Shown here piece after piece: positions 8,286-27,113 of a stretch of DNA of 64,000 nucleotides. The notes under the pieces were generated by a model. The model saw only the letters and a program-made list of their open reading frames with translations. It did not search any database and was not told where the DNA came from. Position numbers and translations under genes: made by a program. Positions within the stretch are counted from its first letter, which is position 1; each line of letters opens with the position of its first letter. Location of the stretch: the IMG/VR virus record IMGVR_UViG_3300020473_000023, positions 42,285-106,284 of that record. One strand, written 5' to 3'. Source of the stretch: a virus.

Positions 8286-8639
8286 TCAATCAAGACAAAT
8301 AGTCAACTCAACATTGTGATCATATGAAGATAAATTTACCTTAACGCCTGTGTTTTCTAAATTAATTTTCTCAAAGCTTAGCAAATTTAAGTCACCATGC
8401 TTAACGTACAGTGATCCTTTAAGATTGCCTCTCACAAGAAGCTTAACAAGCTCTGTTGTTGAATTAAATGAAATTTTAACTTTTTTTTCTGCTCTTGCAA
8501 ATTCATTAATTTCAAATGAAAATGCTCTGTTGTCAATAAAGATCTGACCAATGAACAAAGTGCTAGCGTCAGTTGCATCTCCAGATAAACATCTTGGATC
8601 AATCTTTCCTACAAGAGAGTCGCTCATCATAACAGTCAT
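8286..8639 (-). CDS. hypothetical protein
   Basis: 117 aa ORF, ATGA coupling with the upstream gene, GAGGA RBS. Confidence 0.7.
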   Translation of the reverse strand: MTVMMSDSLVGKIDPRCLSGDATDASTLFIGQIFIDNRAFSFEINEFARAEKKVKISFNSTTELVKLLVRGNLKGSLYVKHGDLNLLSFEKINLENTGVKVNLSSYDHNVELTICLD

Positions 8640-9064
8640 AGCTGATCCTCACCTTGCTGGTCGGAAATATAAAAGTCTTGAATATCTCTGTATAAATTGT
8701 CACAAAAGCCAGCCAGCTCTTTATCCAGCTCTGTAACCTCATTAACATTATGTGTATAAGTTTCAATCTTAACATCGCTACCTTCGATAATAATTCTGGC
8801 ATGATGTCCCATTTCCTCTTGCTCAAAGATTAAGTGTGTCACAAAATCTTTTACCATTCTAGGATCGTTAAAGGAAAACACCCGAGTTAATCTTTCAACC
8901 TCGCCGTCGCTTACAACCATCCACTCAGACCTGCTAACAGCAACAGGAAGCTCTCCGATCACACCGGGAGAAAGATTTCCTAAAATTGAATCTATTCCTT
9001 TCATTTTCATATCACTCTCCTCCTGCAAGATTGACCTTCCAACAACTTCTAAGAGTGACTGCAT
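8636..9064 (-). CDS. phhB: pterin-4-alpha-carbinolamine dehydratase with N-terminal extension
   Basis: LTRVFSF...EEMGHHA...YTHNVNEVTELDKELA matches the PCD signature. Confidence 0.8.
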   Translation of the reverse strand: MQSLLEVVGRSILQEESDMKMKGIDSILGNLSPGVIGELPVAVSRSEWMVVSDGEVERLTRVFSFNDPRMVKDFVTHLIFEQEEMGHHARIIIEGSDVKIETYTHNVNEVTELDKELAGFCDNLYRDIQDFYISDQQGEDQL

Positions 9065-12582: not shown

Positions 12583-13191
12583 CTAGTCTCCGCCAGTAGC
12601 GGGCAAGCCTTCAGGGTCACCAATAGCACCGATTCCTGGCTCTCTCCCACCAGCAAGTGCAGAAGCAGGTTCTCTAATAGGGGCTATATTGAAATCAAAG
12701 TTTGTATCTAGAATATTTTTAAATTCATCTATATAACCTTGGTCATAATTTTCGTCTAAGAAGTTAATAGCTCTATTTATTATAACAGTAGGGATATCTA
12801 GTCTAGCTCGGTATCCCAAGGCTAGTTGGGCAACTTTTTTAGTAAAAGAGTCAATATTCATTGCAGGACGCTTGGCAGGCTCTACAGGAGCAGATACATC
12901 GATATCTTCGCTTCCGACGGGATCTTCAACTCCTGGGTCTTCCGGGGCTAGATTTTCATCTTGCTCAAATAGAAATGCTGATAGATTAAGATTGCTCAAT
13001 GACTCAGTGACAAGATCATCTGAGCTGACTATTGAACTAGCCTCGAAGTCAATCATGTGTGAGTCAATTTGATCGTCAACTGAATCCATAGACAGCCTGA
13101 CTTTTGTCGAAGCATCTGCCATTGAAACAGGTTGATTTTCTTCATCCTGCTCTAGGATCATCTTCCTAAGATCATTAATTGAAATTTTCAT
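12583..13191 (-). CDS. acidic hypothetical protein, probable virion protein
   Basis: MKISINDLRKMILEQ N-terminal motif. Confidence 0.7.
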   Translation of the reverse strand: MKISINDLRKMILEQDEENQPVSMADASTKVRLSMDSVDDQIDSHMIDFEASSIVSSDDLVTESLSNLNLSAFLFEQDENLAPEDPGVEDPVGSEDIDVSAPVEPAKRPAMNIDSFTKKVAQLALGYRARLDIPTVIINRAINFLDENYDQGYIDEFKNILDTNFDFNIAPIREPASALAGGREPGIGAIGDPEGLPATGGD

Positions 13192-13919
13192 GAGAACCTC
13201 AGTGCTTGTGCAATCTTTTCTGCTCTTTCAAACCTTGACTCAATTACAGGCCAGTTGAGCTGTTTCATCATTCCATAGGTATATGTCTTAGCATCCTTAA
13301 GATAATCTCTATAATATGCATGCTGCCAAACGTCCATCACTATAATCGGATATCCGCCAAATGGAACATTTAGACTGTGAAGGTCAACAATAGTATTGAC
13401 ATACCTTTGCAAGTATGTATTAAAATAGGTCACAGCCCAGCCGCAGCGAGATGCCATACAGCAAGCTATAAAATCTTTTTGCCAGGCATCGAACGTTCCA
13501 AAGTCACGCTCCAGCCTCATATATGCCAAAGAGTCCATTCCGATTTGACTGTGTAGATCGCTAATATTTGCAAAATAAAGCTCATGCAAATAAATGGCAT
13601 TCATGTTATATGTTTCATCAATCTTAAGTGCTCTGTACTGAGAATGATTTGAGCTTACCTCTTCTCTATTTGCTGAGTCCAGCTGAGCACTGATTTTATT
13701 GAAATCATCAATGTATTGCTCGTAAAGCTCAAGATGGTTTGTCTTATTTTGCTTACTTAAAAGCTCAGTGGGCAAATTAAACACCTTGTCTTGAGCGACA
13801 TATGCTTCTTTGACTAAATTATTTCCCGGAATATCAGTCTCAGCATCAGTAGTGGGTTCTTCTTTATCAATTCCCAGGGTTTCTCTTATGTTCTTAATGA
13901 TTTCTTCTTCTGTGATCAT
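13188..13919 (-). CDS. Fe/Mn superoxide dismutase with N-terminal extension
   Basis: NHLELY, NAIYLHELYF, DFGTFDAW, GWAV, DVWQHAYY; all four metal ligands present. Confidence 0.9.
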   Translation of the reverse strand: MITEEEIIKNIRETLGIDKEEPTTDAETDIPGNNLVKEAYVAQDKVFNLPTELLSKQNKTNHLELYEQYIDDFNKISAQLDSANREEVSSNHSQYRALKIDETYNMNAIYLHELYFANISDLHSQIGMDSLAYMRLERDFGTFDAWQKDFIACCMASRCGWAVTYFNTYLQRYVNTIVDLHSLNVPFGGYPIIVMDVWQHAYYRDYLKDAKTYTYGMMKQLNWPVIESRFERAEKIAQALRFS

Positions 13920-14675: not shown

Positions 14676-15350
14676 CTACAGTAAGTTAGAATAAATTGTA
14701 GAATAGCTTTTATTGTATTTAAATTTTTCAAAATCCTTTTCATAAAATTTTAAAAATTCACTGAGCACATTTGGAAATCTTTCCCACGGAACTCTAATAT
14801 CTGGAACGTCCTTAAGCGACACGTTCTCCCGAGGGAGAGAAGTTGATGGAGATATTATTTTTCTTCTCTGCAACTCAGACAAAAGTTCAGGTATTTGATC
14901 TTCTATCCTATACCAGTCTGTTCCTTCTCCGATAAATTCAAATTGGCTTCTAAAGTGATTATCATCTACCCCGGGTCCATTTTTAGGAATTACATTTTTA
15001 AAAAGATCTGTTACCCAGTCAATAAATCCCAGTGGGTGGGGATATTCAATTCCAAACTCTTTTGCCTGCTGCTTTGCTTTAGAAAATATTCTATCGTATG
15101 GGTTTCTAACAATAGTAAATTCATACTCCCACGTTCTATCCCAAAGATCCCTTAGGGCTCTATGCTGATGCTTGGACCGCTTATTGTCAGATACTTGAAT
15201 CTCTCTAGACATTCTAGTCGGAAGAGGTCTATCTTTTTCAGCAATCTTCCACCCCTGGCTTTCGATCATCTTTCTAACAGAGCTTCCGCCAGCCTTTGGA
15301 ATGTGAACAAATAAAATTCTTCTTCCTTCACGTTCGTATATTGATGACAT
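14676..15350 (-). CDS. sulfotransferase family 2 protein
   Basis: FVHIPKAGGSS 5'-PSB loop, VRNPYDR 3'-PB motif, HFRSQ. Confidence 0.85.
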   Translation of the reverse strand: MSSIYEREGRRILFVHIPKAGGSSVRKMIESQGWKIAEKDRPLPTRMSREIQVSDNKRSKHQHRALRDLWDRTWEYEFTIVRNPYDRIFSKAKQQAKEFGIEYPHPLGFIDWVTDLFKNVIPKNGPGVDDNHFRSQFEFIGEGTDWYRIEDQIPELLSELQRRKIISPSTSLPRENVSLKDVPDIRVPWERFPNVLSEFLKFYEKDFEKFKYNKSYSTIYSNLL

Positions 15351-16374: not shown

Positions 16375-16932
16375 CTATTTTGACTGATTCATAAAACTGT
16401 GATGAAACCAGGATCTTGGCTCATAGAGCTCAGAGCCACCGACAGTAATTTCATCAAGACCAGAAAGCTTTCTGTGTGTATAGTACGCATCCTGCCCGGA
16501 AATTGGACACACAGCGGGACAAACCTCAATCTTTGTTGCCCATGGCATCATGTCTCTAATTTCCTCAAAAACATTTCCACTAGCAGAAAGCTGAAGTGAA
16601 GATACTACAACAGTCTTTCCCTCTCTAAAGAGGGAGAGAAGTGCTGATGCAGAACCATCTATCATAAAAGCCTCATCTACGGCAATAACATGAATATTTT
16701 CTTTATCCTGTAGATATTTTAATATATCTTCACCAGTTTTTACACATGTGGCTGAAATCTTTCCCCCTGAATGTGTACAGATCTCACCTAAAGAATACCT
16801 GTCGTCCATTGCAGGCTTAAAGCAGACAATATTTCTATTTTGATATCTAAATCGATCTAGAGTTGCCATAAGCCTGGTCGTCTTAGATCCAAACATGGGA
16901 CCAGTAAAAATTATAAATTCAGGAATTCTCAA
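16375..16932 (-). CDS. tdk: thymidine kinase
   Basis: GPMFGSKTT P-loop, FKPAMDDRY, VDEA, VGGSELYEP. Confidence 0.9.
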   Translation of the reverse strand: MRIPEFIIFTGPMFGSKTTRLMATLDRFRYQNRNIVCFKPAMDDRYSLGEICTHSGGKISATCVKTGEDILKYLQDKENIHVIAVDEAFMIDGSASALLSLFREGKTVVVSSLQLSASGNVFEEIRDMMPWATKIEVCPAVCPISGQDAYYTHRKLSGLDEITVGGSELYEPRSWFHHSFMNQSK

Positions 16933-17350
16933 CTATAACCTCCGCAAGGTGTGCAAATGACTTATCCTCTCTTCCATAGTCGTCAATAATTCTAATTACA
17001 CTATGATTTCTAGTGTCCCCTATTTCAAATATTATTGAATCTACTTCGGCTGTTATTCTATATGGACACTCAGATTGAATATTTAAGCACTCACCTTGAG
17101 ACAGCGTCATCTTTCTCATTGGATGATTTGAAGGGTCTTCAAAAAATCCCTGATCTGCACAGTCAACAGAAACTCTCCCTTGAACGACAAATAAAGTTTC
17201 TGTCTTAACTTTATTCATTTTAAAACTTAGCCTCTTTCCAGCTTCAATGGTTAGAATTTTTCCATAAGCATTTGGTGCTGTCCATGAAACCTCTGTGCCC
17301 CACGGCTTTACGTGATTGTTGGAGACACCTCCCCATATTGCCTTACTCAT
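16919..17350 (-). CDS. cupin protein (type II mannose-6-phosphate isomerase C-terminal-like)
   Basis: KPWG...KRLS...KTETLFVVQG...IRIIDDYGR; start re-called at MSKAIW. Confidence 0.7.
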   Translation of the reverse strand: MSKAIWGGVSNNHVKPWGTEVSWTAPNAYGKILTIEAGKRLSFKMNKVKTETLFVVQGRVSVDCADQGFFEDPSNHPMRKMTLSQGECLNIQSECPYRITAEVDSIIFEIGDTRNHSVIRIIDDYGREDKSFAHLAEVIVENS

Positions 17351-18347
17351 CTTTAAGACCCCACCACTCAACTGTTCTTTCTAGTCCCTCCCAAATTCTC
17401 ACAACAGGCTCATACCCAAAATCTTCTCTAGCATTTGTAATATCTGCCTGAGTGTGCATAACGTCACCCGGCCTCCACGGTGCGTCAGTCACCTCTATAT
17501 TAGGAAATTTATCTCTGAAGAAATCTAAGATTTGATTGTTTGTTGTTCTATCTCCGCAGGCAATATTATAATACTGTCCCTCAAAATCATCATCTCGACT
17601 TGCTACTAAAATATTAGCCTGAACAACGTTGTCAATATAGCAAAGGTCCCTTGACTGTGTTCCATCTCCATCACTCCTTAGGGGAAGGCCTCTAAGGACA
17701 GCATTGCACCATGCAGAAACAGCTGTTGAATACGGAGAATCTCCATACTGCCCTGGGCCAAATACATTAAAATATCTTAGGCACACAATATCAATATTAT
17801 AAAGATTGCAAAAAACATTTGCGAGGTCTTCAATTGAAGATTTCTGCCAAGCATATGGAGATTTGGGGTCCTTTGGGTGATCTTCTGAAGTAGGCATTAA
17901 ATCTGCCCCTCCGTAAACAGAAGAGGATGATGCCCAGACAATTCTTCTAACGTTTCCAACACATGCTTCAAATAACCTGACAGTAGATCCAATATTTGTA
18001 TTTGTTGTTATAGAGGGATTTTCAACAGAAAACAAGACTCTGGGTATTGCTGCCTGATGAAATACAACATCATATTTTCTCTGAGATATTTGATAAATTA
18101 TTCCATCGGCAGCGAAGTCATCCTGAATAACCACAACAGTTTCCTGACCCCTTCCTGACTGTTTGTTAAATTCCGGGAGAAACTCTGAACTCGGAATTAC
18201 TCTAAAGCTTAGCCCTTCTAAAAGCTCTAGATGGCCGTTTGACATATCGTCTACGATGTCAACTGTCCAGCCTTGACTGACAAGCTCTTTTGTTAGATTT
18301 GATCCGATGAATCCACATCCGCCTGTAACTAGTGCTCTTTTTTCCAT
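17343..18347 (-). CDS. NAD-dependent nucleotide-sugar epimerase/dehydratase
   Basis: TGGCGFIG, SSSSVYG, YAWQK (YxxxK), RYFNVFGP, GDGTQSRD; start MEKRAL after GAGG. Confidence 0.92.
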   Translation of the reverse strand: MEKRALVTGGCGFIGSNLTKELVSQGWTVDIVDDMSNGHLELLEGLSFRVIPSSEFLPEFNKQSGRGQETVVVIQDDFAADGIIYQISQRKYDVVFHQAAIPRVLFSVENPSITTNTNIGSTVRLFEACVGNVRRIVWASSSSVYGGADLMPTSEDHPKDPKSPYAWQKSSIEDLANVFCNLYNIDIVCLRYFNVFGPGQYGDSPYSTAVSAWCNAVLRGLPLRSDGDGTQSRDLCYIDNVVQANILVASRDDDFEGQYYNIACGDRTTNNQILDFFRDKFPNIEVTDAPWRPGDVMHTQADITNAREDFGYEPVVRIWEGLERTVEWWGLKDE

Positions 18348-18366
18348 ATTTCTACCTCGGTATATC

Positions 18367-19275
18367 TTACTCAAGAATGTGTGCAGAGTTTAAAGTGAAA
18401 TGCATTCTACAAAAATTACATCCTTCACCAAGCAGGCTCCAGCATTCTGAAGCTATAAAGTATAGAAACTTTAAATCGTGCTGAAACTTGTTATTAATAT
18501 CTGTTGATCTACAGACAAATCTGATATCTAGGACTCCGCCTCTGTTGAGAATGTGAATCATTGAGATGCAGGTATCTTCTGTGAACACGTACCTTCTAGA
18601 GCCTATACCTTCTTTTCTTTCATACGGATTATTTCCTGCTTGCTCATCATCTATTTTATTCATCAGTGTGTTGTAGATGTGACAATAGTATTCTTTCTCT
18701 GACTCCTCACTCATAGAAGATATATCTGACTCTTTAAATTCACCATCGTCATGAAGTGTAAAGGTTAGTTGATTGCACTCCTTGTTTGGAAAGTGTTTGA
18801 CAAAATTCCCAATCTGGCCGTAGATCTCTTTTAAGCTTAGATTCTTTTCAATGCAATTATGATAGTCAACAACCATGCTTGCAAGACGCCCTGATGCTCC
18901 ATTCATAATGCCATAGACGTTTGAGAGTGCAGGCCATCTGGCAAACTCTTTGTAAAAGTAATCATACGAATCCTTAAGAGATTCAATTGTGTGAATTTCA
19001 TCTCCCCGGTGATTGTACCTTTCTCTAAGGACCTCAAATGTAGGCATCATAAAAACATATCTGTTGTTAAGATTGCTAACCTCTTCATAGAATTCTCTAG
19101 TTGCTTGATCGACATCTCTGTTATACATCTTAGAAAATACCATTCTTGATAGCTTCGACCTATCCATTAGATGCCATCGGTAGTCAGTCTTTTTGTGAAT
19201 GTCACTAATAAGTGTTGTCTTTCCAGAAAGGTCTGGCCCTTCAATGGAGATCATATTGATTGGAAAAGTTAGCAT
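18367..19275 (-). CDS. dNMP (thymidylate-type) kinase fused to a minimal thymidylate-synthase/dCMP-hydroxymethylase-like domain
   Basis: N-term EGPDLSGKTT and DR; C-term SRR, C-x19-RSTD-x7-D, SAHI. Confidence 0.75.
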   Translation of the reverse strand: MLTFPINMISIEGPDLSGKTTLISDIHKKTDYRWHLMDRSKLSRMVFSKMYNRDVDQATREFYEEVSNLNNRYVFMMPTFEVLRERYNHRGDEIHTIESLKDSYDYFYKEFARWPALSNVYGIMNGASGRLASMVVDYHNCIEKNLSLKEIYGQIGNFVKHFPNKECNQLTFTLHDDGEFKESDISSMSEESEKEYYCHIYNTLMNKIDDEQAGNNPYERKEGIGSRRYVFTEDTCISMIHILNRGGVLDIRFVCRSTDINNKFQHDLKFLYFIASECWSLLGEGCNFCRMHFTLNSAHILE

Positions 19276-19284
19276 TATCCTACC

Positions 19285-22200
19285 TCACACATTAATCTTT
19301 CTCATCTTGTAGGAAGATGTACTACATCCCCAAGATTCAGTTGATGCAACTTCAGCAATCCATATTGTATATGGATCAGGAACTTCTTTAAACTTTGTCC
19401 AGACTCTAAGCCAGCAGCTTTCAGAATTGTTATCGCAAACTCTCATTCTATAGAATATCTTTCCATTCTTGGTCTTCTTCTCAATAATTTCCTGAATGCA
19501 GAACCAGACTACATCTTTTGTCTTTCCAGAGAGTGCAGTAATCGGCTTAAGTTCAGACTTCTTAATCTTTTCCATTATCTTGGGAGGAAAGACAAGCGTC
19601 TCGTCAGCTCCTGACATTAAGTCAACACTGAACCCGATCTTTAGGGTTCGAGACCAGTCAGCAGACCCGTAGTTGTCAACAATAAGCTTAGGAACAAATT
19701 CCTCAACAGTTGCCTGTGTCTTGAGGAGGCGCTTATGTGCAGTCTTTGTCATCCCATACCTACCTTTCTTCAATTGATCATAGTTTCCAACAATTATATC
19801 ATGAAGCTGTCTGTGATTTTGAATTTCTCCTTGGGATATTTCTGCTATACTTCCAAACGCCTCTACCTTACAAAGAGAATCAAAGGCTGTTTTATTTAGC
19901 TTGGAAGGCTTCCACTTCCCATCTTCTGTAAATAAAATATCATCAAGGGTGCTATATGGTCTATTTTCCATAATCTCAGTAACAGCAGATCCTCCAACAC
20001 CTTTGATAGCAGTAAGCGGTGGTACGAACCCTTGCCTTTCTTCACTATACACCCAGACGTCTGAAGAAGCATTGATATCGGGTTGAAGGATTTTATATCC
20101 TAGTGACTTGATCTCTGCTATGATCTTTGCAAACTTTGGAGATCCGTTCCACGTCTGAAGGCATGTAGCGAGCCATTCCTTTTCATGGTATGTGTGTAAC
20201 CATGCAGAATAATATGAATCAACAGCGTAGGCGACCGCATGTGACTTATTGAAGCCATAGGCAGAGAACGCCTCAATTGTCTCGTAGAGCTTGGTTGCTT
20301 TGTCTTCTGCCATGCCAGATAGTTTAACGGCACCTCCAATAAACTTCTCTCTAAGGTCAGCCCTCTCTTTTGCCTTTTTGTCATTCATGTCAAGAGACTT
20401 CTTGACAAGAGTCTTTCTCATCTTATCTGAAGCGCCTTTGTCGAATCCGCACAGCTTTTGTGCAATAAGCATGAACTGCTCCTGAAAGACGACGAATCCA
20501 CGGCTTTCGCTTAGGAGATCTTCAAGGACAGGGTGGTCGTATGTAATGCTTTCAATGTTTTCACCGGCCCGAACATATTTCCTATGAACGTTAGCTGCAA
20601 GGGGTCCTGGTCGATAGATTGCTGTAATGGTTGCAAGGTCTTCAATAGATCTAGGCTTGGCAGCCACACAGAAGTTTCTAGCACCTGTATTTGTGAACTG
20701 AAATACTTGGACGAATCTCCCATCGTGATAAACGTATTCCCAAACCTTTTGATCATCCATCTTGTGAAATCTACTATTTAGATTTGCATCAAAGAATTCA
20801 TTAATATCGTCAAACGTAGGATTTTCTACGCCTTGGTTTCTTAGGATGAGTCTGATAGAATCTTCCACCATTTTAAGAGTTGCTAGCCCAAGAAAGTCAA
20901 ATTTAAGAAATCCATTCTCTTCAAGGTGCCTCCAGTTCATTCCTTCTGACCACGGTGTTTGAAGCTCACCCCTAACTTTAATGACAGGCATACTGCTCTC
21001 AAGATCTGGGCAGACTAATACACCGCCAGCATGGCGACCGATCGATCTAGGCTCCATAAAGAGAGATTGAACGTGCTCTGCAATCTTAGGGTTATCGTTC
21101 ATAAATTCCCGATAGGGTTCGCTGTATTTCATGCAGTCCTCATGAGAAAGAACATATGTTGACTTTTCCTCATGATCACCCATGGCTCTTGGCATTACCT
21201 CTCTTTCCAGCGGACCTGTTAGAGCGTTTATCTTATCAAAAGGAATTCCATAAAACTTAGAAACGTCCTTAACAAGTGACCTTAACTTTAAAGTGTTAAA
21301 GTTGGAGACAGGTATGACAGAGTCTTCGCCAAAGAGCTCTCGAGAGACATCGATGAGTACATCTCTATCACCTACGTCAGAATCAATATCAGGCCAAGAA
21401 GCCTTGTGAATGCCAAGAAATCTCTCGAACAGAAGCCCATATTGAATAGGGTCAATGTGGGTAATCCCAAGGACATAGTTTACTAAGCTTCCGCCACCAG
21501 AACCTCGACCCGGACCGAGTAGAGTTCTATGCTGAGACTTCTCAAACACCTTAGTTAGAGTCAAGAAGTAATTTTCAAAGCCTAGCTGCTTAATAACAGA
21601 CATTTCCTCCCTAATCCGATTGACGTACTCGAGATTGTCATGAAGCCCTTCTTTGATCATTCCCTGCTTTACCTGTTCAACAAGCTGAGTAAACGCAGGC
21701 TTCTCAGGTGTTCCGAAGTTTGGAAGCTTTGCTGATCCGTCAAACCAGACTTCTTCGCAGAGGTCCCAGGCAATTCCATGAGATCTCTCAATTGCTTCTC
21801 GAACAGCTGTCTCACTTCCCTTATAGAAATCATATTTATCATAGCTCTTTCCAAATTCATCCCACATCTGCTGTGCATTCTTAGGATAGAGCTCACACTT
21901 TAAATCCTCCTTCTGGGGAAGTTTAGGCATTTCATCGCCTCTTGCACCCATTCTTCCAAGCATCTTATACATCTCTCTTGCCTCCCACATGTCTGGATTG
22001 CAATAGTGAGAATCAGCTGTGGCAAGAAGTGGGACTCCTGTCTTTTCAGAAAGCTTGATCAAGCACCTATTGGCAAGGTTTTGTGCAACAAGATCATTAA
22101 ACTGTATTTCAAGAAAAAAGTTTTCTTCGCCTACGGCATCTACAAATCTGTCTGTCATATTCTCAAGCTTTCTCATGATCTGATTAAGGACAACAGGATC

Positions 22201-22869
22201 GTCTACAAGATCGGGTGTCAGCTCATCAAACCTCTTTCCTTCAAAGTGCTGAAAGATATGGCCCGAAGGACGCCCACCAACACACGCTGTGGACACAGCA
22301 AGCCCTTCAGAGTGTTCCTTAAGCATCTTGTAGTCAATACGGGGAAACCTATAGAACCCCTCCTTGTATGATCTCTTGACCAATCTAAAGAGGTTCTGCA
22401 ACCCTTTGTAATTCTTAGCGAGAACTACAAGATGGTACCGCTTTTTCCAGGAGGGATAGGTTCCCCTCTCTGCCTTGGATTCATCTTCGTTTTCAATAAC
22501 CAAGCCATCGTTCTCATCCCCCTCAGAAACCTCACTCTTTGACTTCTTCTGAAGTTCTTTCTCAAGCCTGACCTGCTCTCTATATTGATTATAGTCTGTT
22601 TGCCATTCGTCTAAGTCATCTACAAAGTAGCACTCACAGCCATAGATGTGTCGATATCCCACCCCTTTGTTCTTTAGCTTTTTAGCATAGTTGTGAGCAT
22701 GAGCAGCAGAGTTCATGTGCCCATGATTTGTTAATGCAAAAGCATCCATTCCATTTTCAAGAACAAAGTCAATATGCTCGTTAGGGTATCCAAGGCCATC
22801 ATATACAGAGCTTCCATCGTGAGCATGAAGACCTACAAATCTTTTAGGTATGGTAAAATTATTAAACAC
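19285..22869 (-). CDS. dnaE: DNA polymerase III alpha subunit (family C)
   Basis: PHP domain (LHAH, GCE, ADSH), GRGSGGGSL, LFERFL, PDIDSD, KFDFLGL, YGFNKSHA. Confidence 0.97.
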   Translation of the reverse strand: MFNNFTIPKRFVGLHAHDGSSVYDGLGYPNEHIDFVLENGMDAFALTNHGHMNSAAHAHNYAKKLKNKGVGYRHIYGCECYFVDDLDEWQTDYNQYREQVRLEKELQKKSKSEVSEGDENDGLVIENEDESKAERGTYPSWKKRYHLVVLAKNYKGLQNLFRLVKRSYKEGFYRFPRIDYKMLKEHSEGLAVSTACVGGRPSGHIFQHFEGKRFDELTPDLVDDPVVLNQIMRKLENMTDRFVDAVGEENFFLEIQFNDLVAQNLANRCLIKLSEKTGVPLLATADSHYCNPDMWEAREMYKMLGRMGARGDEMPKLPQKEDLKCELYPKNAQQMWDEFGKSYDKYDFYKGSETAVREAIERSHGIAWDLCEEVWFDGSAKLPNFGTPEKPAFTQLVEQVKQGMIKEGLHDNLEYVNRIREEMSVIKQLGFENYFLTLTKVFEKSQHRTLLGPGRGSGGGSLVNYVLGITHIDPIQYGLLFERFLGIHKASWPDIDSDVGDRDVLIDVSRELFGEDSVIPVSNFNTLKLRSLVKDVSKFYGIPFDKINALTGPLEREVMPRAMGDHEEKSTYVLSHEDCMKYSEPYREFMNDNPKIAEHVQSLFMEPRSIGRHAGGVLVCPDLESSMPVIKVRGELQTPWSEGMNWRHLEENGFLKFDFLGLATLKMVEDSIRLILRNQGVENPTFDDINEFFDANLNSRFHKMDDQKVWEYVYHDGRFVQVFQFTNTGARNFCVAAKPRSIEDLATITAIYRPGPLAANVHRKYVRAGENIESITYDHPVLEDLLSESRGFVVFQEQFMLIAQKLCGFDKGASDKMRKTLVKKSLDMNDKKAKERADLREKFIGGAVKLSGMAEDKATKLYETIEAFSAYGFNKSHAVAYAVDSYYSAWLHTYHEKEWLATCLQTWNGSPKFAKIIAEIKSLGYKILQPDINASSDVWVYSEERQGFVPPLTAIKGVGGSAVTEIMENRPYSTLDDILFTEDGKWKPSKLNKTAFDSLCKVEAFGSIAEISQGEIQNHRQLHDIIVGNYDQLKKGRYGMTKTAHKRLLKTQATVEEFVPKLIVDNYGSADWSRTLKIGFSVDLMSGADETLVFPPKIMEKIKKSELKPITALSGKTKDVVWFCIQEIIEKKTKNGKIFYRMRVCDNNSESCWLRVWTKFKEVPDPYTIWIAEVASTESWGCSTSSYKMRKINV

Positions 22870-22931: not shown

Positions 22932-24002
22932 TCAATCTATAAATTTTCTTCTCAGCCTGAGGGACTCTAGCTTTTCAATAAGCTCTTTCTCTTCTGGGGA
23001 AGCGTCTGTCGGGATGCTTACAGTAACATGAACATTGTGAAATCCACGAATCTGAGCATTGATATCAACAGGAAGCCCTTCATTTGAAATTTGAATAATA
23101 TCACCTGGCTGAATTCCCGGTCTAATTTCTACAGAAAGAGTCTTATCTATTCCCCCTATATTAACCTTTGACCCAAGAACAGCTTCACTATAGGATATAG
23201 ATACGTGACTATGAATATCACTACCATCCCTATAGAGCTTCTGGTGATCTTTGACTACAATCTCTAAGAAAGCATCTCCGGCAATGTCCGCTGTGGCTTC
23301 TTTGTTTCCCATGCCCGAAAGCTTAAGAACATTTCCAGAATGGATTCCACTGGGTATCGAGACATTAATTTCCTTTTTCTTTCGTACAGACCCAGAACCG
23401 TGACAGCTAGAGCATGGGTTGGATATTGTAAATCCGTATCCTGAGCAGCTTCCACAAGAAGTTGCAAATGTTACAAACCCCCCGACACTTTGCTGAACCC
23501 TTCCTGTTCCGGCGCATGTCTTGCACCTAGACCTATCTGACTTATCTAAATAGCCATGCCCTGAACACGGTTCACATAGAACTATTTGATTGATATGAAT
23601 AGTCTTACTGCAACCTGTTAGGACTTCTTCAAGGTCTATTTCAATCGTATTCTTAGTGTCTGATCCCTTTCTCTTAACATCACGCTGTCTTCTTCCACCA
23701 AAAAAGTGATCAAATCCTGAGAACATATTTTCAAAATGTCCGAATATATCTCTTGGATCGAACTGAGAAGAGAAGCTAGAAGAGACACCCTCGTGTCCAA
23801 ATCTATCATAATTTACACGCTTTTCAGGATCAGAAAGCACTGAATAAGCCTCGGCTGCTTCTTTAAATTTTAGCTCAGCATCCGGATCATCTGGATTCTT
23901 ATCAGGATGATATTTCATAGCCTGCTTTCGATAAGCTTTCTTTATATCACCCTCAGAAGAGTCTTTTTTAACTCCTAGTATTTCATAATAGTCTCTTTTC
24001 AA
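22932..24002 (-). CDS. dnaJ: chaperone DnaJ
   Basis: DYYEILGV...HPD J-domain, G/F region, four CxxCxGxG repeats, C-terminal domain. Confidence 0.97.
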
Positions 24003-24247
24003 ATATCTTTCTCGTAATAGTTTCTAGTTACAATCATTTCAGATTTCTCACCGTCTACAGAGTATTTAATCTCCATTTCCCAAGAAGGCTCTTTGACATT
24101 GTTTAAGAATCTTTCCTGAATATAGAATAGCTCGTCTCTTCGCTTAACTTTTTCTACTTCTTCTTTTGCAGACTCCCAAGAAGAGAAAATTCCAACCAAG
24201 GAAGTTGAAATATTTCTACATCGGATAAGGGCATATACTTTATTCAA
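23999..24247 (-). CDS. hypothetical protein
   Basis: fills the gap between NDT and dnaJ; probable TTG start overlapping the NDT stop. Confidence 0.55.
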
Positions 24248-24680
24248 TACTTCCATAGTAAGGCTCATGAAGAAGCATGCTGAGATCTGAGCATCGAGAA
24301 AGATAATCATCAAGCTCATCAAACGAGGTGCAGACCTTGGCCCCCGATTGTGCTAGCATTAGATTAAATGTAGCTCCTTCTGGAAGCCCTGCACAAAAAT
24401 AAACTATAGGTGTATCAGATTGAAAGGCAACGCCTGCTTCAAAAATACTTCCCATATCTTTATCGCGAGTATTGCAAATTACAAAGTCATTTCCAAGAAT
24501 GTGTTCAACATTTCCCTCAAACGTCTCTCTTTGTGTCTTAAGATCAGCTGTTGGCGGACATACAAAGAAGTCTTTTGGTGAAAAATAGTCAAATCCATTT
24601 TTTGTAAGAAGTGATTTAATAGTTTCAACCTCCTCAAAGGCAGTCGGTGTAAACCAAGAGCTTGCAATATACGCTTTCAT
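24240..24680 (-). CDS. nucleoside 2-deoxyribosyltransferase / nucleotide N-glycosidase family protein
   Basis: YIASSWF, FSP, DMGSIFEAGVA, PIVYF, NLML. Confidence 0.85.
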   Translation of the reverse strand: MKAYIASSWFTPTAFEEVETIKSLLTKNGFDYFSPKDFFVCPPTADLKTQRETFEGNVEHILGNDFVICNTRDKDMGSIFEAGVAFQSDTPIVYFCAGLPEGATFNLMLAQSGAKVCTSFDELDDYLSRCSDLSMLLHEPYYGSIE

Positions 24681-24690
24681 TAACTTTCTC

Positions 24691-25680
24691 CTATTTGTTA
24701 TTGTTCATATAGTTTGCGTATTCATCTTTCATTTCTTGAATTTCTTCAAGAGTTGAAGTCCAAATTTTCTCAAAAATAGTTGGACCGTCATTAGGAACTG
24801 TTCCCTTAATATCTTCTCGACGAGATTGATAAATTGAATCATCAGGGTGATATTCAAACAGATCGTTCTTTGGCTCCGGCCAGTATAGATTTGTTCCCCT
24901 TGAGGTGAAGCCACCTTGTCCATCGGAAACTCTAAAAGTCTTTACATAGTGCATATCAGGCTTGTCAAAGTTAATTCTAGAAGAGGCTTCTGGGAGAACC
25001 TTGATTAGCTCCTTAGCCATATAGGCTGCCAGCAAATTGTCTGCAGCTGGTTGAATTTGCATATCTTGCCTCTGGGCGATGAAGCCTAAAAGATCTTTGA
25101 GATTAAGTCTCATCAGATAAAAAGATGTCATGCACTTTGGAAGAATCATTCTAGCATCCATCATAGAGACATCTTTTGAATCTGTCATGTCTGCATAGAG
25201 CTGCTTTGCCTCCCTTGTTAGTGTAATCCACCTATCTAAAAATTCAGGAGAGTTTTCAACAGCCTCAGGAATAACAGCAGGATCATCACGAAGATCTCGA
25301 TCGCCGGTGCACTGGGCGGCAAAAGAACCGGCTCGGTGTCGAATAATATGCGTGACTTCCTGGAATGACAAGCCGCTTAATTTAAAAGTAAACCCAAAAC
25401 ATTCCATTGGTGTTGGTAGTGCCCTAAAGCAGAGGACGTCTTCCAGATTAGAGGACATTTCTTGCGGTGTGGCTGTTGTAGGATTTGTGTCATCAGGGTT
25501 GTCTGCCCAGGTGGCTTTTACGTACTGCCAGGCAACGTTTAATGCCTGATCCCGAGTTGGATAGTCAACAAGCTCAACCTTTAAGGCTGACAAGTTGTTA
25601 AAAAATTCTGTAGTAGGCTCCTGTCCGAACTTTAGGTCCATTGGGAGACTGATTGGCTTAAGATTATGATTGACTGGCAT
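24691..25680 (-). CDS. thyX: flavin-dependent thymidylate synthase-like protein (Ser-to-Cys variant)
   Basis: TPME...F, RHRAGSFAAQC, DARMILP, NLKDLLGFIAQR. Confidence 0.75.
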   Translation of the reverse strand: MPVNHNLKPISLPMDLKFGQEPTTEFFNNLSALKVELVDYPTRDQALNVAWQYVKATWADNPDDTNPTTATPQEMSSNLEDVLCFRALPTPMECFGFTFKLSGLSFQEVTHIIRHRAGSFAAQCTGDRDLRDDPAVIPEAVENSPEFLDRWITLTREAKQLYADMTDSKDVSMMDARMILPKCMTSFYLMRLNLKDLLGFIAQRQDMQIQPAADNLLAAYMAKELIKVLPEASSRINFDKPDMHYVKTFRVSDGQGGFTSRGTNLYWPEPKNDLFEYHPDDSIYQSRREDIKGTVPNDGPTIFEKIWTSTLEEIQEMKDEYANYMNNNK

Positions 25681-25736: not shown

Positions 25737-26690
25737 TCACATAAAATTATTCTTCATTAAAAGAGCGTCGATGAGAACTCTTAGCTGGCTCGGGCCATAA
25801 TACATCTTGACGCCTTCAACACTTTCAAGCTCTGAATTGTATGAAGTAACGGGAGAAAGAGTTGAAACTCCGTGCTTGGCATATTCAGCGCTATGTTTGG
25901 CAGAATCATCAATAGCACATACAATTTTTCCAGAGTCAAAATATTCAGACTTAGTTAGCCATCTATACTTCTCAGCGCTAAAATCAACTCTGTGAAATTT
26001 TAACCCTGATTTGCTTAGCCACCTGTATGTATCATACTTACATTGAAGAACATCTCCTGGCCGAGCTGTTAAGAGTTGAATCCAGCATCCGCTATCATAA
26101 AAGTGATTTATAGTCTGTACGACACCTGTATCTACTGTGAGAGTTCTAAGCTTTCTTTCTGCCAAAAAGTCATCAAATACTTCTTCAGGATTTAGTCCGG
26201 CATCTCTAACTTCTGATGTAGTATAATACTCAGTAGACTCTCTGTCGACTAAAACGCCTCTCTCGGATTCAAGCCAGTCAATAAAGTTAGATCTAAAATG
26301 TGCAATCACATCATCAATATCAAATACAAGGACAGGCTGGCCCTCCCAGGCCTGAGATTCGATATGATATCTCATATGAAGAAACATGTCCTTATCTTCA
26401 AATGCGTCAGATAGAGATCCTGGGTCTATGTTCCAAAGATTTAAAATTGCAAGAAGATATCTAAAAACATCAACTGATTCGTATAGAATCTTTGAAGGAT
26501 CAGCAACGCTCCTAAGTCGTCTATGATCTTTAAAGTTAACTGCGCTTATTAGTTCAGAAACTTCGGCATGAAGAGCCAGGGCAAAAGATTTTGTCATCTC
26601 TTCTCTTTCACTATCTGACATATTTTCAGGTTTAAAAAAAAGATCAGAAAATTTATTTTGACGATTAAAGAAATAGTCTAAGTCTCTCAT
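25737..26690 (-). CDS. dimeric dUTPase/MazG-like domain fused to HAD 5'(3')-nucleotidase
   Basis: EVSEL...FKDH...YESVDVFRY N-term; FDIDDV, LTAR, K, IDD HAD motifs C-term. Confidence 0.8.
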   Translation of the reverse strand: MRDLDYFFNRQNKFSDLFFKPENMSDSEREEMTKSFALALHAEVSELISAVNFKDHRRLRSVADPSKILYESVDVFRYLLAILNLWNIDPGSLSDAFEDKDMFLHMRYHIESQAWEGQPVLVFDIDDVIAHFRSNFIDWLESERGVLVDRESTEYYTTSEVRDAGLNPEEVFDDFLAERKLRTLTVDTGVVQTINHFYDSGCWIQLLTARPGDVLQCKYDTYRWLSKSGLKFHRVDFSAEKYRWLTKSEYFDSGKIVCAIDDSAKHSAEYAKHGVSTLSPVTSYNSELESVEGVKMYYGPSQLRVLIDALLMKNNFM

Positions 26691-26741: not shown

Positions 26742-27113
26742 CTAATATCCTTCTGTCAACCTTTTGTGAATTACTTCGTCCTTTCTAGTATACTCTCTAA
26801 ACAAATCATCTGAGCTAAATCCTGTCATAATGAGAAGAGAGAAAAAGTAATTAAAGGCATCAACCATCTCTTCAAGAAACTTCTCTCTATCGAACCCAGA
26901 GATCTCAGTGACTCTATGCGGTTTCCAGTTTTTAAGATGCTGAAGGGCTTCGAACATTTCTTCGACACCCCTTAGAGCGACATCCCTGCAAATCTGCTGA
27001 TCCTCTTTTTTACTTAGGTCTAGAGGGGCGGTTGGAGTTGATCCGGGAATTTTTTCACCCAAAGATCTCATAAACAGCTCCCTCAGTTCAAACATAGAAT
27101 CAAGCTTGTCCAT
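26742..27113 (-). CDS. dimeric all-alpha dUTPase/dCTPase (T4 gp56-like)
   Basis: EEMFE...WKPH...EEMVD. Confidence 0.8.
   Translation of the reverse strand: MDKLDSMFELRELFMRSLGEKIPGSTPTAPLDLSKKEDQQICRDVALRGVEEMFEALQHLKNWKPHRVTEISGFDREKFLEEMVDAFNYFFSLLIMTGFSSDDLFREYTRKDEVIHKRLTEGY

What the first reader, a model, noticed from the sequence alone, without database searches (positions are those of the whole stretch)
18367..19275. dNMP kinase fused to a minimal thymidylate-synthase fold with the cytosine-specifying Asp
Seen: C-terminal SRR...TC-x19-RSTDINNKFQHD...SAHI. The spacing exactly matches E. coli TS C146, R166, S167, D169 and position 177, where Asp replaces Asn. Known: Asp at this site dictates dCMP over dUMP (T4 gp42; TS N177D mutant). 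The domain is only about 140 aa, the folate-proximal Gly173 is Lys and Tyr209 is Leu. Inference: a dCMP-directed enzyme with possibly folate-independent chemistry that channels product to the fused kinase, or a dCMP-sensing regulatory domain.
Basis: partly seen in the sequence, partly recalled or inferred. Interest (0 to 1): 0.85.

Follow-up and report, generated by a model that had tools for sequence, protein, structure and literature searches.

The report
Nucleotide kinase fused to mini thymidylate-synthase
An uncultured marine giant phage encodes, right after its DNA polymerase gene, one protein joining a small nucleotide kinase to a stripped-down thymidylate-synthase-like domain built to grip and attack cytosine nucleotides, so this phage and hundreds of relatives probably make an altered cytosine for their DNA, by chemistry still unknown.

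Summary
ORF 18367-19275 (-) encodes 302 aa. Residues 1-145 form a YorR/thymidylate-kinase-like P-loop kinase. Residues ~147-302 form a confidently predicted thymidylate-synthase (TS) fold of about 155 aa, not 140.

In 269 full-length relatives the Cys, Arg-Arg, Arg-Ser, Asp177-equivalent and His are 96-99% conserved.

The nearest solved relatives are the dCMP-specific TS homologues: flavin-dependent dCMP 5-hydroxylase AfhB, CMP hydroxymethylase MilA and T4 dCMP hydroxymethylase.

The domain lacks the TS segments that hold folate. It ends just after the SAH motif, as AfhB does.

The fusion is fixed in a large uncultured marine jumbo-phage clade and sits directly behind dnaE in 80 of 80 related loci. 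Published 5-hydroxycytosine gene clusters carry a separate YorR/TMPK-like kinase two or three genes from the TS homologue. Here the two are one chain.

Best reading (about 50%): a bifunctional enzyme that modifies dCMP at C5 and phosphorylates the product. The substituent, the cofactor and any sugar are undetermined.

This scan noted the same family earlier on other genomes. I found no paper describing it.

The parts
18367..19275 (-). Whole ORF, 302 aa plus stop: kinase fused to a TS-like domain
   Evidence: Over 200 full-length relatives. 266 representative clusters at E<1e-10.
18841..19275 (-). N-terminal P-loop nucleotide kinase domain (residues 1-145)
   Evidence: Profile hit to SPbeta YorR (2axp/3kb2), E 4.9e-7. 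VIA Z 13.0 to YorR and 11-11.7 to thymidylate kinases. PHROG 761 'thymidylate kinase', E 2.5e-9.
19213..19242 (-). P-loop EGPDLSGKTT (residues 12-21)
   Evidence: E12, G13, D15, G18 and K19 are at least 95% conserved.
18370..18840 (-). C-terminal minimal thymidylate-synthase-fold domain (residues 146-302)
   Evidence: Domain model pLDDT 96.8. Foldseek top hit AfhB 9iqu, E 8.6e-7, TMq 0.61. VIA: MilA Z 12.2, AfhB Z 12.0, ThyA Z about 10.9.
18592..18600 (-). S226-R227-R228, counterpart of the TS R126/R127 phosphate-binding pair
   Evidence: R227 in 263 and R228 in 258 of 269 relatives. Aligned to the SRR of T4 gp42 and RB69 gp48.
18568..18570 (-). Cys236, counterpart of the TS catalytic nucleophile C146
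   Evidence: 263 of 269. Aligned to C148 of T4 dCH and C159 of AfhB.
18499..18510 (-). R256-S257-T258-D259, counterpart of TS R166-S167-C168-D169
   Evidence: R and S each 263 of 269. Position 259 is D 135, N 104, E 22.
18475..18477 (-). Asp267 at the TS Asn177 (base-specificity) position
   Evidence: 265 of 269. Aligned to D179 of T4 dCH.
18379..18387 (-). S297-A298-H299 (TS H207 position). The protein ends 3 residues later.
   Evidence: H299 in 259 of 269. Aligned to SAH of AfhB/RB69 gp48 and SLH of T4 dCH.
18685..18699 (-). E193 and Y197 on the helix that follows the first strand. At least 95% conserved; role inferred (possible counterparts of TS E58/Y94).
   Evidence: The mapping to E58/Y94 is inference only.
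19278..19286 (-). Shine-Dalgarno-like GAGGTAGGA between the dnaE stop codon and the ATG
19285..22869 (-). DnaE-type DNA polymerase III alpha, immediately upstream (context)
   Evidence: Upstream neighbour in 80 of 80 related loci.
17343..18374 (-). NAD-dependent NDP-sugar epimerase/dehydratase-family gene, immediately downstream (context)
   Evidence: Present in 55 of 80 related loci.

Best explanation
The protein is a bifunctional enzyme of phage deoxynucleotide metabolism.

Proposed mechanism:
1. The C-terminal mini-TS domain binds dCMP. The 5'-phosphate sits in the Arg256/Ser257 plus Arg227/Arg228 cage, probably completed across a TS-like dimer. Asp267 reads N3/N4 of cytosine.
2. Cys236 adds to C6, which makes C5 nucleophilic.
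3. A C5 substituent is installed. The most likely one is a hydroxyl from an O2-activated flavin or pterin, as in AfhB/RB69 gp48. Less likely is a one-carbon unit.
4. The N-terminal YorR/TMPK-like kinase phosphorylates the modified dCMP (and possibly dTMP) to the diphosphate.
5. Host NDP kinase and the phage DnaE polymerase then put the base into DNA.

Shown here: the fold, the conserved active-site residues, the fixed fusion and the fixed gene context.

Inferred: substrate, catalysis, cofactor, product, dimer, and the hand-over between the two sites.
For: 1. TS fold with high confidence. The full model has pLDDT 94.3 and pTM 0.90. The domain model has pLDDT 96.8. The listed Foldseek and VIA matches are all TS-superfamily entries, led by the dCMP/CMP-specific enzymes AfhB, MilA and T4 dCH.

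2. Sequence-level homology to dCMP enzymes.

3. Every residue of the TS-like domain conserved at 95% or more is a TS nucleotide-binding or catalytic position (R227, R228, C236, R256, S257, D267, H299), apart from E193, Y197 and R245. The domain is as conserved as the kinase: 35.7% against 37.7% mean pairwise identity.

4. Position 259 (TS D169, which contacts the cofactor ring in ThyA) is restricted to D, N or E in 261 of 269 members. This suggests that a ligand still stacks over the base.

5. The architecture is fixed. Searches found no stand-alone domain and no larger fusions.

6. Rosetta-stone argument. In the three experimentally studied 5-hydroxycytosine clusters, a YorR/TMPK-like 'nucleotide kinase' lies two or three genes from the 5hodCMP synthase: DLP3 gp78/gp80, RB69 gp45/gp48, RL38J1 gp214/gp216 (Table 1 of PMC13326640; RB69 layout). 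DLP3 gp78's top PDB match is YorR (3kb2), the same protein that tops my kinase-domain search.

7. A T4-like supporting cast lies in the same conserved module: dCMP deaminase, a MazG-like NTP pyrophosphatase, ThyX and TK.

8. Lee et al. found UV-visible incorporation of 5hodC into E. coli DNA only when a cognate phage dNMP kinase was co-expressed; the synthase alone gave a trace seen only by MS. That gives a rationale for the fusion.
Against: - No biochemical data exist for any member.
- About 55 residues that carry the folate contacts in ThyA (the W80/W83/Y94 region) are missing, as are 11-16 residues before the Cys. It is therefore unclear where any cofactor would bind.
- The residues at the start of the central helix that line the cofactor site in ThyA (262-266) are variable.
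- This protein has Asp, not Asn, at the D169 position. Asn there is the published signature of 5hodCMP synthases.
- Three diverged members have lost the Cys and Arg residues while keeping the kinase.
- The clade makes dTMP (ThyX, TK, dCMP deaminase) and shows no other TMPK or dNK hit in five large genomes. The kinase could simply be the phage's dTMP kinase.
- GT1/GT2 glycosyltransferases occur in only 2 of 5 large genomes, far from the module. No sugar decoration is implied.
Confidence: 0.5

Rival explanations
1. The kinase is the real enzyme: the phage's dTMP or general dNMP kinase. The TS-like domain is then a non-catalytic dCMP-binding module. It would act as an allosteric sensor of the dCMP/dTMP balance, and/or as the dimerisation domain through the TS beta-sheet.
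For: The gene sits in a dTTP-synthesis module with ThyX, TK and dCMP deaminase. No other TMPK or dNK hit appears in five large genomes, including one judged 100% complete. The cofactor-holding TS segments are absent, and the cofactor-side residues 262-266 vary. Three lineages keep the kinase while the TS motifs decay.
Against: The nucleophilic Cys is kept in 263 of 269 members, along with E193 and Y197. From the ThyA literature, binding alone does not need the Cys. The domain is as conserved as the kinase. The separate-gene counterparts in 5hoC clusters pair such a kinase with an active enzyme.
Confidence: 0.2
2. The TS-like domain is catalytic but needs no organic cofactor. After the Cys adds to C6, it would carry out a different reaction on a cytosine nucleotide. 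Candidates are hydrolytic deamination through the 5,6-dihydro adduct, C5 proton exchange, removal of a 5-substituent during salvage, or action on CMP rather than dCMP.
For: The nucleotide and nucleophile residues are conserved. No conserved cofactor-binding residues appear beyond position 259. The Tyr209 position, which contacts the deoxyribose 3'-OH in ThyA, is I, L or V. The ribonucleotide enzyme MilA is the top VIA match at Z 12.2.
Against: A zinc dCMP deaminase is already present in the same module in 69 of 80 loci. No precedent known to me exists for such reactions in the TS superfamily. The P-loop Asp15, typical of thymidylate kinases, argues for deoxynucleotides; this is inference from established TMPK structures.
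Confidence: 0.12
3. The TS-like part is an evolutionary remnant of a once full-length TS/dCMP hydroxymethylase that fused to a kinase. It is now only a structural appendage.
For: Heavy trimming relative to ThyA (about 155 aa against 264 aa). No Pfam or NCBIfam hit.
Against: Active-site residues are 96-99% conserved across members that share only about 36% identity. The fold is predicted with very high confidence. The fusion is retained in hundreds of lineages.
Confidence: 0.05

Closest known systems
Flavin/O2-dependent dCMP 5-hydroxylases (5hodCMP synthases): AfhB of phage HY126 (PDB 9iqu, 9iqc), RB69 gp48, DLP3 gp80, RL38J1 gp216
   Same: TS fold. Best Foldseek match (E 8.6e-7) and VIA Z 12.0. 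Cys nucleophile, SRR, RS-x-(D/N), Asp at the N177 position and the SAH motif. Both end shortly after SAH and so lack the ThyA C-terminal arm. Both are associated with a YorR/TMPK-like kinase, as a neighbouring gene there and as a fusion here.
   Different: About 55-75 residues shorter: the segment between the second helix and SRR, and 16 residues before the Cys, are missing. This protein has Asp, not the diagnostic Asn, at the D169 position; 39% of the family has Asn. No arabinose or UDP-sugar pathway and no conserved glycosyltransferase were found. Flavin binding is untested.
T4 gp42 dCMP hydroxymethylase (PDB 1b49, 1b5d, 6a9a)
   Same: Best sequence-profile relative: hmmsearch E 4.4e-4 and hhalign 94.9%. 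Asp at the specificity position, Asp at the D169 position, and an Arg-Asp hairpin after the Cys strand. T4 has the same logic of dCMP-modifying enzyme plus dNMP kinase plus dCMP deaminase plus NTP pyrophosphatase.
   Different: T4 gp42 is a full 246-aa, folate-dependent enzyme that retains the folate-binding segments. Its kinase (gp1) is a separate, unrelated-looking dNMP kinase.
ThyA thymidylate synthase (Pfam PF00303)
   Same: Core fold: VIA Z about 10-11 over 138-144 residues, E. coli residues 1-210. Same catalytic Cys, phosphate-binding Arg/Ser and His207.
   Different: Asp replaces Asn177. The W80/W83/Y94 segment and residues 211-264 are absent. The Pfam model is not matched.
YorR of Bacillus prophage SPbeta (PDB 2axp/3kb2) and thymidylate kinases
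   Same: The kinase domain gives profile E 4.9e-7 and VIA Z 13.0, rmsd 2.8 over 140 residues. It shares the GPDxxGKTT P-loop and the DRxxxS motif, which RB69 gp45 also has.
   Different: Here the kinase is fused to a TS-like domain. PF02223 does not reach its threshold. The substrate of YorR itself is, to my knowledge, uncharacterised.

Membership tests
Thymidylate synthase / dCMP hydroxymethylase superfamily (fold level) | TS alpha/beta fold with a central sheet and a long buried helix | tested here: met
   Foldseek gives 367 hits at E<=0.001; the 50 listed are all TS-superfamily entries. VIA Z is 10-12.2 over about 140 of 157 residues.
Thymidylate synthase / dCMP hydroxymethylase superfamily (fold level) | Catalytic Cys (E. 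coli C146) 20 residues before the Arg-Ser (R166-S167) | tested here: met
   C236 and R256-S257 are each present in 263 of 269 relatives and align to T4 C148/R168-S169.
Thymidylate synthase / dCMP hydroxymethylase superfamily (fold level) | Arg-Arg pair that binds the phosphate across the dimer (R126'/R127') | tested here: inconclusive
   SRR is present and conserved.
ThyA (Pfam PF00303 Thymidylat_synt) | Match to the curated family model above its gathering score | tested here: not met
   No hit for the protein. Two of 58 domain sequences hit at E 0.065 at best. No genome-level hit.
ThyA (Pfam PF00303 Thymidylat_synt) | Asn at position 177 (dUMP specificity) | tested here: not met
   Asp267, conserved in 265 of 269.
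ThyA (Pfam PF00303 Thymidylat_synt) | Folate-binding elements: the W80/W83 segment and the C-terminal arm (residues 211-264) | tested here: not met
   Only about 14 residues lie between the helix ending at 213 and R227, against about 60 in ThyA. The protein ends 3 residues after H299. Structure alignments stop at ThyA residue about 210.
dCMP-specific TS homologues (T4 gp42 type) | Asp at the N177 position | tested here: met
   D267 aligned to D179 of T4 dCH.
dCMP-specific TS homologues (T4 gp42 type) | Acidic or polar residue instead of Leu143 at the active-site entrance | tested here: inconclusive
   The residue 3 before the Cys is E233 here and D/S/N/Q/E/G across the family. An 11-16-residue deletion just upstream makes the structural equivalence uncertain.
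dCMP-specific TS homologues (T4 gp42 type) | Uses CH2-tetrahydrofolate and releases 5-hydroxymethyl-dCMP | not testable with these tools
   Needs an enzyme assay.
5hodCMP synthases (AfhB / RB69 gp48) | Asn at the D169 position (the diagnostic proposed in PMC13326640) | tested here: not met
   Asp259 in this protein. Across the family: D 135, N 104, E 22.
5hodCMP synthases (AfhB / RB69 gp48) | Bound flavin and O2-dependent hydroxylation | not testable with these tools
   Needs purified protein (UV-vis, LC-MS, 18O2).
5hodCMP synthases (AfhB / RB69 gp48) | Chain ends shortly after the SAH motif (no ThyA C-terminal arm) | tested here: met
   SAH lies at 297-299 of 302. In AfhB/RB69 gp48, SAH lies at about 220-226 of 234-238.
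Thymidylate kinase / YorR-like P-loop (d)NMP kinases | P-loop kinase fold with a GxxxxGK(T/S) Walker A motif | tested here: met
   EGPDLSGKTT. VIA Z 13.0 to YorR and 11-11.7 to TMPKs.
Thymidylate kinase / YorR-like P-loop (d)NMP kinases | Match to Pfam PF02223 above its threshold | tested here: not met
   Only weak P-loop matches.
Thymidylate kinase / YorR-like P-loop (d)NMP kinases | Phosphorylates a (modified) dNMP | not testable with these tools
   Needs a kinase assay.

The most novel reading that the evidence does not exclude
The mini-TS domain may be a new kind of pyrimidine oxygenase. It would have kept only the pterin-stacking core of thymidylate synthase and would use a reduced pterin (or a loosely held flavin) plus O2 to hydroxylate dCMP at C5.

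The 4a-carbinolamine by-product would then be recycled by the orphan pterin-4a-carbinolamine dehydratase. That gene is conserved about 10 kb downstream in 34 of 37 related phage genomes, while a conventional pterin-dependent hydroxylase occurs in only 1 of 37.

The fused kinase would commit the product to DNA. A cosmopolitan clade of marine jumbo phages would then carry 5-hydroxycytosine, or a derivative, made by a third cofactor solution within the TS fold.
Probability: 0.1. Interest if true: 0.88.

Novelty: new variant of a known kind. Interest (0 to 1): 0.64.

Why it matters
TS-fold enzymes supply the starting bases for most known phage DNA hypermodifications: 5-hmC, 5-hmU and, since 2025-26, 5-hydroxycytosine.

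This family is the smallest TS fold I found that keeps the full set of nucleotide and nucleophile residues, and the only one I found covalently joined to its kinase. It is a core gene next to the polymerase in a widespread, uncultured clade of marine phages with genomes up to about 284 kb.

If it is active, three things follow:
- It points to an unrecognised modified cytosine in abundant ocean viruses. That bears on host defence evasion, on sequencing and quantification of marine viral DNA, and on nucleotide turnover.
- It defines the minimal catalytic core of the TS fold.
- It may reveal a new cofactor solution.

If it is a sensor instead, it would be the first regulatory use of the TS fold that I know of.

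Tried and rejected
The TS-like dimer and shared active site remain untested.
- Pfam, NCBIfam and single-sequence PDB searches gave nothing significant for the C-terminal domain. A family profile was needed.
- tblastn against 50,697 phage records found no relative apart from a P-loop fragment. The nearest cultured DnaE is only about 29% identical. No isolate is available.
- Searches for stand-alone or larger fused forms found only the roughly 300-aa architecture and fragments from short contigs.
- I tested whether Asp or Asn at position 259 splits the family into subtypes with different neighbours or co-varying residues. There was no clear association.
- GT1 and GT2 glycosyltransferases were sought as a sign of DNA glycosylation. 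They occur in 2 of 5 large genomes, more than 100 kb from the module, and are absent from the 106-kb fragment parts that I scanned. This does not support sugar decoration. Other GT families were not searched.
- hhalign of the family against RB69 gp45 aligned only the P-loop. HMMER added the DRxxxS motif, but in a 12-protein database. That is suggestive only.
- A 150-nt identical contig inside the gene (18544-18693) occurs in a marine metatranscriptome library. DNA carry-over cannot be excluded, so I do not count it as expression.
- The ESM Atlas gave TS-named and short viral clusters at score 0.90. These are leads only.
- The paper by He et al. on AfhB is not in the library, so the flavin-contact residues could not be compared.
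- Model coordinates are not returned by the tools. The relative placement of the two active sites and the E58/Y94 equivalences could not be measured.

Full report
**What is in the sequence.** The ORF at 18367-19275 on the minus strand encodes 302 aa. It starts 9 nt after the stop of a 1194-aa DnaE-type polymerase gene. A GAGG/AGGA ribosome-binding motif lies in that gap, and no terminator-like site separates the two genes. The next gene downstream is an NDP-sugar epimerase/dehydratase-family SDR. It overlaps the ORF or follows it within about 20 nt, depending on its start codon.

**Is it more than chance.** Yes.
- A 37-sequence family profile hits SPbeta YorR with the N-terminal half (E 4.9e-7) and T4 dCMP hydroxymethylase weakly with the C-terminal half.
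- A 58-sequence profile of the C-terminal domain alone hits T4 dCH at E 4.4e-4 and AfhB at E 6.6e-3. No ThyA appears in the list. Cys, RS-x-D, Asp and S-x-H fall in register.
- hhalign gives 94.9% (E 4.4e-8) against T4 gp42 and 87.4% (E 3.7e-6) against RB69 gp48.

**Fold.** AlphaFold2 with the family alignment gives pLDDT 94.3 and pTM 0.90 for the whole chain, and pLDDT 96.8 for residues 146-302 alone.
- For the domain model, Foldseek returns 367 PDB hits at E<=0.001, and the 50 listed are all TS-superfamily entries. The top hit is phage HY126 dCMP hydroxylase AfhB (9iqu, E 8.6e-7, TMq 0.61).
- VIA-align gives MilA Z 12.2 (142 aligned, rmsd 3.0), AfhB Z 12.0, and ThyAs about 10-11, with E. coli ThyA residues 1-210 covered.
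- The N-terminal domain matches YorR at Z 13.0 (140 aligned, rmsd 2.8) and thymidylate kinases at Z 11-11.7.

The TS-like domain spans about 155 residues rather than 140.

**What has been trimmed.** I compared motif spacings and alignment ranges.
- Only about 14 residues lie between the long helix 194-213 and R227. ThyA has about 60 there; from established ThyA structures, these carry I79, W80, W83 and Y94.
- R228 and C236 are 8 residues apart. The distance is 19 in E. coli ThyA and 24 in T4 dCH and AfhB.
- The chain stops 3 residues after His299, so the whole ThyA C-terminal arm is absent.

AfhB and RB69 gp48 also end shortly after their SAH motif. That truncation is shared with the flavin-dependent hydroxylases. 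The two internal deletions are specific to this family.

**Conservation.** The family is large. There are 213 clusters at 90% identity with the whole protein, 482 with the domain profile, and 266 clusters at 50% identity at E<1e-10. Nearly all are about 295-312 aa and two-domain; the shorter ones are mostly from short contigs and look like fragments.

In 269 distinct full-length members:

| Residue | Count of 269 |
|---|---|
| C236 | 263 |
| D267 | 265 |
| R227 | 263 |
| R228 | 258 |
| R256 | 263 |
| S257 | 263 |
| H299 | 259 |
| E193 | 262 |
| Y197 | 259 |
| R245 | 257 |

- These are the only positions of the domain conserved at 95% or more. The kinase domain has its own set: E12, G13, D15, G18, K19, D38, R39, S43, R53, R86, R90, G91, D92.
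- The two domains are equally conserved, at 35.7% and 37.7% mean pairwise identity.
- The D169-equivalent (259) is D in 135 members, N in 104 and E in 22. It is always a carboxylate or carboxamide, but it is not fixed.
- The residues after it, which line the folate site in ThyA, vary.
- Three very diverged members have lost the Cys and Arg residues but keep the P-loop.

**Genomic context.** The window belongs to a 106-kb IMG/VR virus record judged about 40% complete. In 80 related viral loci, on contigs up to 284 kb, DnaE lies immediately upstream in all of them. The usual order is: (Fpg) (MazG-like NTP pyrophosphatase) (HAD-containing 317-aa protein) ThyX, NDT/DNPH1-like, (DnaJ), DnaE, kinase-TS, epimerase, (cupin), TK, DHH phosphoesterase, dCMP deaminase, SOD-like, and further on a PCD-like gene. 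The fusion is thus a core gene of the replication and nucleotide module, not part of a variable island.

Five large records, one of them judged 100% complete at 284 kb, show:
- no PF00303 hit;
- no PF02223 match above the family cut-off, only weak P-loop-range matches;
- no PF01712 match at E<=0.01.

GT1 and GT2 glycosyltransferases occur in only two of them, far from the module. The stretch recurs in marine metagenomes from 2014 and 2025.

**Link to what is known.** Lee et al. (NAR 2026, PMC13326640) and the AfhB structures show that some phage TS homologues are flavin/O2-dependent dCMP 5-hydroxylases. The product 5-hydroxy-dCMP is phosphorylated by a phage dNMP kinase, incorporated into DNA and then glycosylated. 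Their proposed signature is N177D, an acidic residue at L143, and D169N. Here the first is met. The second is plausible but uncertain because of the nearby deletion. The third is not met in this protein, though it is met in 39% of the family.

A point I have not seen made elsewhere concerns their Table 1. It lists a YorR/TMPK-like 'nucleotide kinase' two or three genes from the TS homologue in each of the three studied clusters: DLP3 gp78/gp80, RB69 gp45/gp48 and RL38J1 gp214/gp216.
- For DLP3 gp78 the top PDB match is YorR, the same top match as for the kinase domain here.
- RB69 gp45 shares the GPDxxGKTT and DRxxxS motifs.
- The marine protein therefore looks like a fusion of that recurrent gene pair. 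By Rosetta-stone logic, the kinase and the TS homologue would act on the same metabolite.

**Mechanism and its limits.** I commit to a bifunctional enzyme that modifies dCMP at C5 and phosphorylates the product, at about 50%. The substituent is open.
- Hydroxyl is favoured by the closest fold match, the shared C-terminal truncation and the missing folate-binding segments.
- Hydroxymethyl or methyl is favoured by Asp259 and the slightly better profile match to T4 gp42.
- The lack of a conserved cofactor-binding surface is the main weakness. It leaves room for a regulatory dCMP-binding role (about 20%) or a cofactor-free reaction (about 12%).

A speculative lead concerns a PCD-like protein with the catalytic His-His...His spacing. 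It is conserved in 34 of 37 related genomes, while a pterin-dependent hydroxylase is present in only 1 of 37. A reduced pterin could therefore be the oxygen-activating cofactor. All these genomes are kin, so this co-occurrence is not independent evidence.

**Earlier notes of this scan.** Look-ups showed the same family noted before on other genomes, with the same closest-known assignment. I re-derived the fold, conservation and synteny results independently here. New in this report are the neighbour-to-fusion argument, the family-wide residue counts, the PCD/PAH tally, and the absence of other TMPK, dNK or ThyA genes.

Noticed in passing
window 8636-9064 (-): Pterin-4a-carbinolamine dehydratase-like gene (Pfam E 5e-14). 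The His-His...His...Asp spacing is kept, but Pro is replaced by Ala and the aromatic residue by Gly. It is present in 34 of 37 related phage records, while an aromatic-amino-acid-hydroxylase-type partner (PF00351) is present in only 1 of 37. It is an orphan PCD in a phage nucleotide module.
   Followed up: partly
window 13188-13919 (-): 243-aa protein with an Fe/Mn superoxide dismutase C-terminal domain (E 1.8e-16). It is conserved in 57 of 80 related loci, just downstream of the dCMP deaminase.
   Followed up: no
window 24240-24680 (-) and 26742-27113 (-), 25737-26690 (-): Three genes upstream of dnaE, present in many relatives: a nucleoside 2-deoxyribosyltransferase/DNPH1-family protein, a MazG-like NTP pyrophosphohydrolase, and a 317-aa protein with HAD/PNK-phosphatase-like PHROG hits. 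They could act as pool-sanitising enzymes in a T4-like scheme that excludes canonical dCTP.
   Followed up: partly
window 24691-25680 (-): ThyX homologue that is unusually long (329 aa) and scores modestly (Pfam 64.6 bits; NCBIfam 39 bits against a cut-off of 88). It is a divergent flavin-dependent thymidylate synthase.
   Followed up: no
window 16919-17371 (-) and 17343-18374 (-): An extended-SDR NDP-sugar epimerase/dehydratase (best NCBIfam match TviC-like, far below cut-off) is followed by a small cupin that lacks the usual His-x-His metal motif and carries a PWG-x-E motif. The epimerase is in 55 of 80 relatives and the cupin in 23 of 80. No glycosyltransferase lies nearby.
   Followed up: partly
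window 14676-15350 (-): Sulfotransferase-family gene (PHROG 'galactose-3-O-sulfotransferase', E 2e-18) inserted between the DHH phosphoesterase and the dCMP deaminase. It occurs in only 4 of 80 related loci, so it is a strain-variable addition.
   Followed up: no
window 22932-24002 (-): Full-length DnaJ (J domain, zinc-finger and C-terminal domains) encoded directly upstream of dnaE. Present in 14 of 80 related loci.
   Followed up: no
L083:11878-13540 (same virus record, upstream of the window): A GMP reductase/IMPDH-family gene (E 3e-104) sits next to a PP-loop ATPase (ATP_bind_3). Two Methyltransf_24 genes lie at L084:8985-10489.
   Followed up: no
P0186, P0201, P0204 (distant family members): These members keep the kinase P-loop but have lost the TS-like Cys, the Arg-Arg pair and the Arg-Ser. 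This suggests secondary loss of the TS-domain function in a few lineages.
   Followed up: partly
window 18544-18693: A 150-nt contig identical to this part of the TS-like domain occurs in a marine metatranscriptome library (two runs of one sample). DNA carry-over is not excluded.
   Followed up: partly
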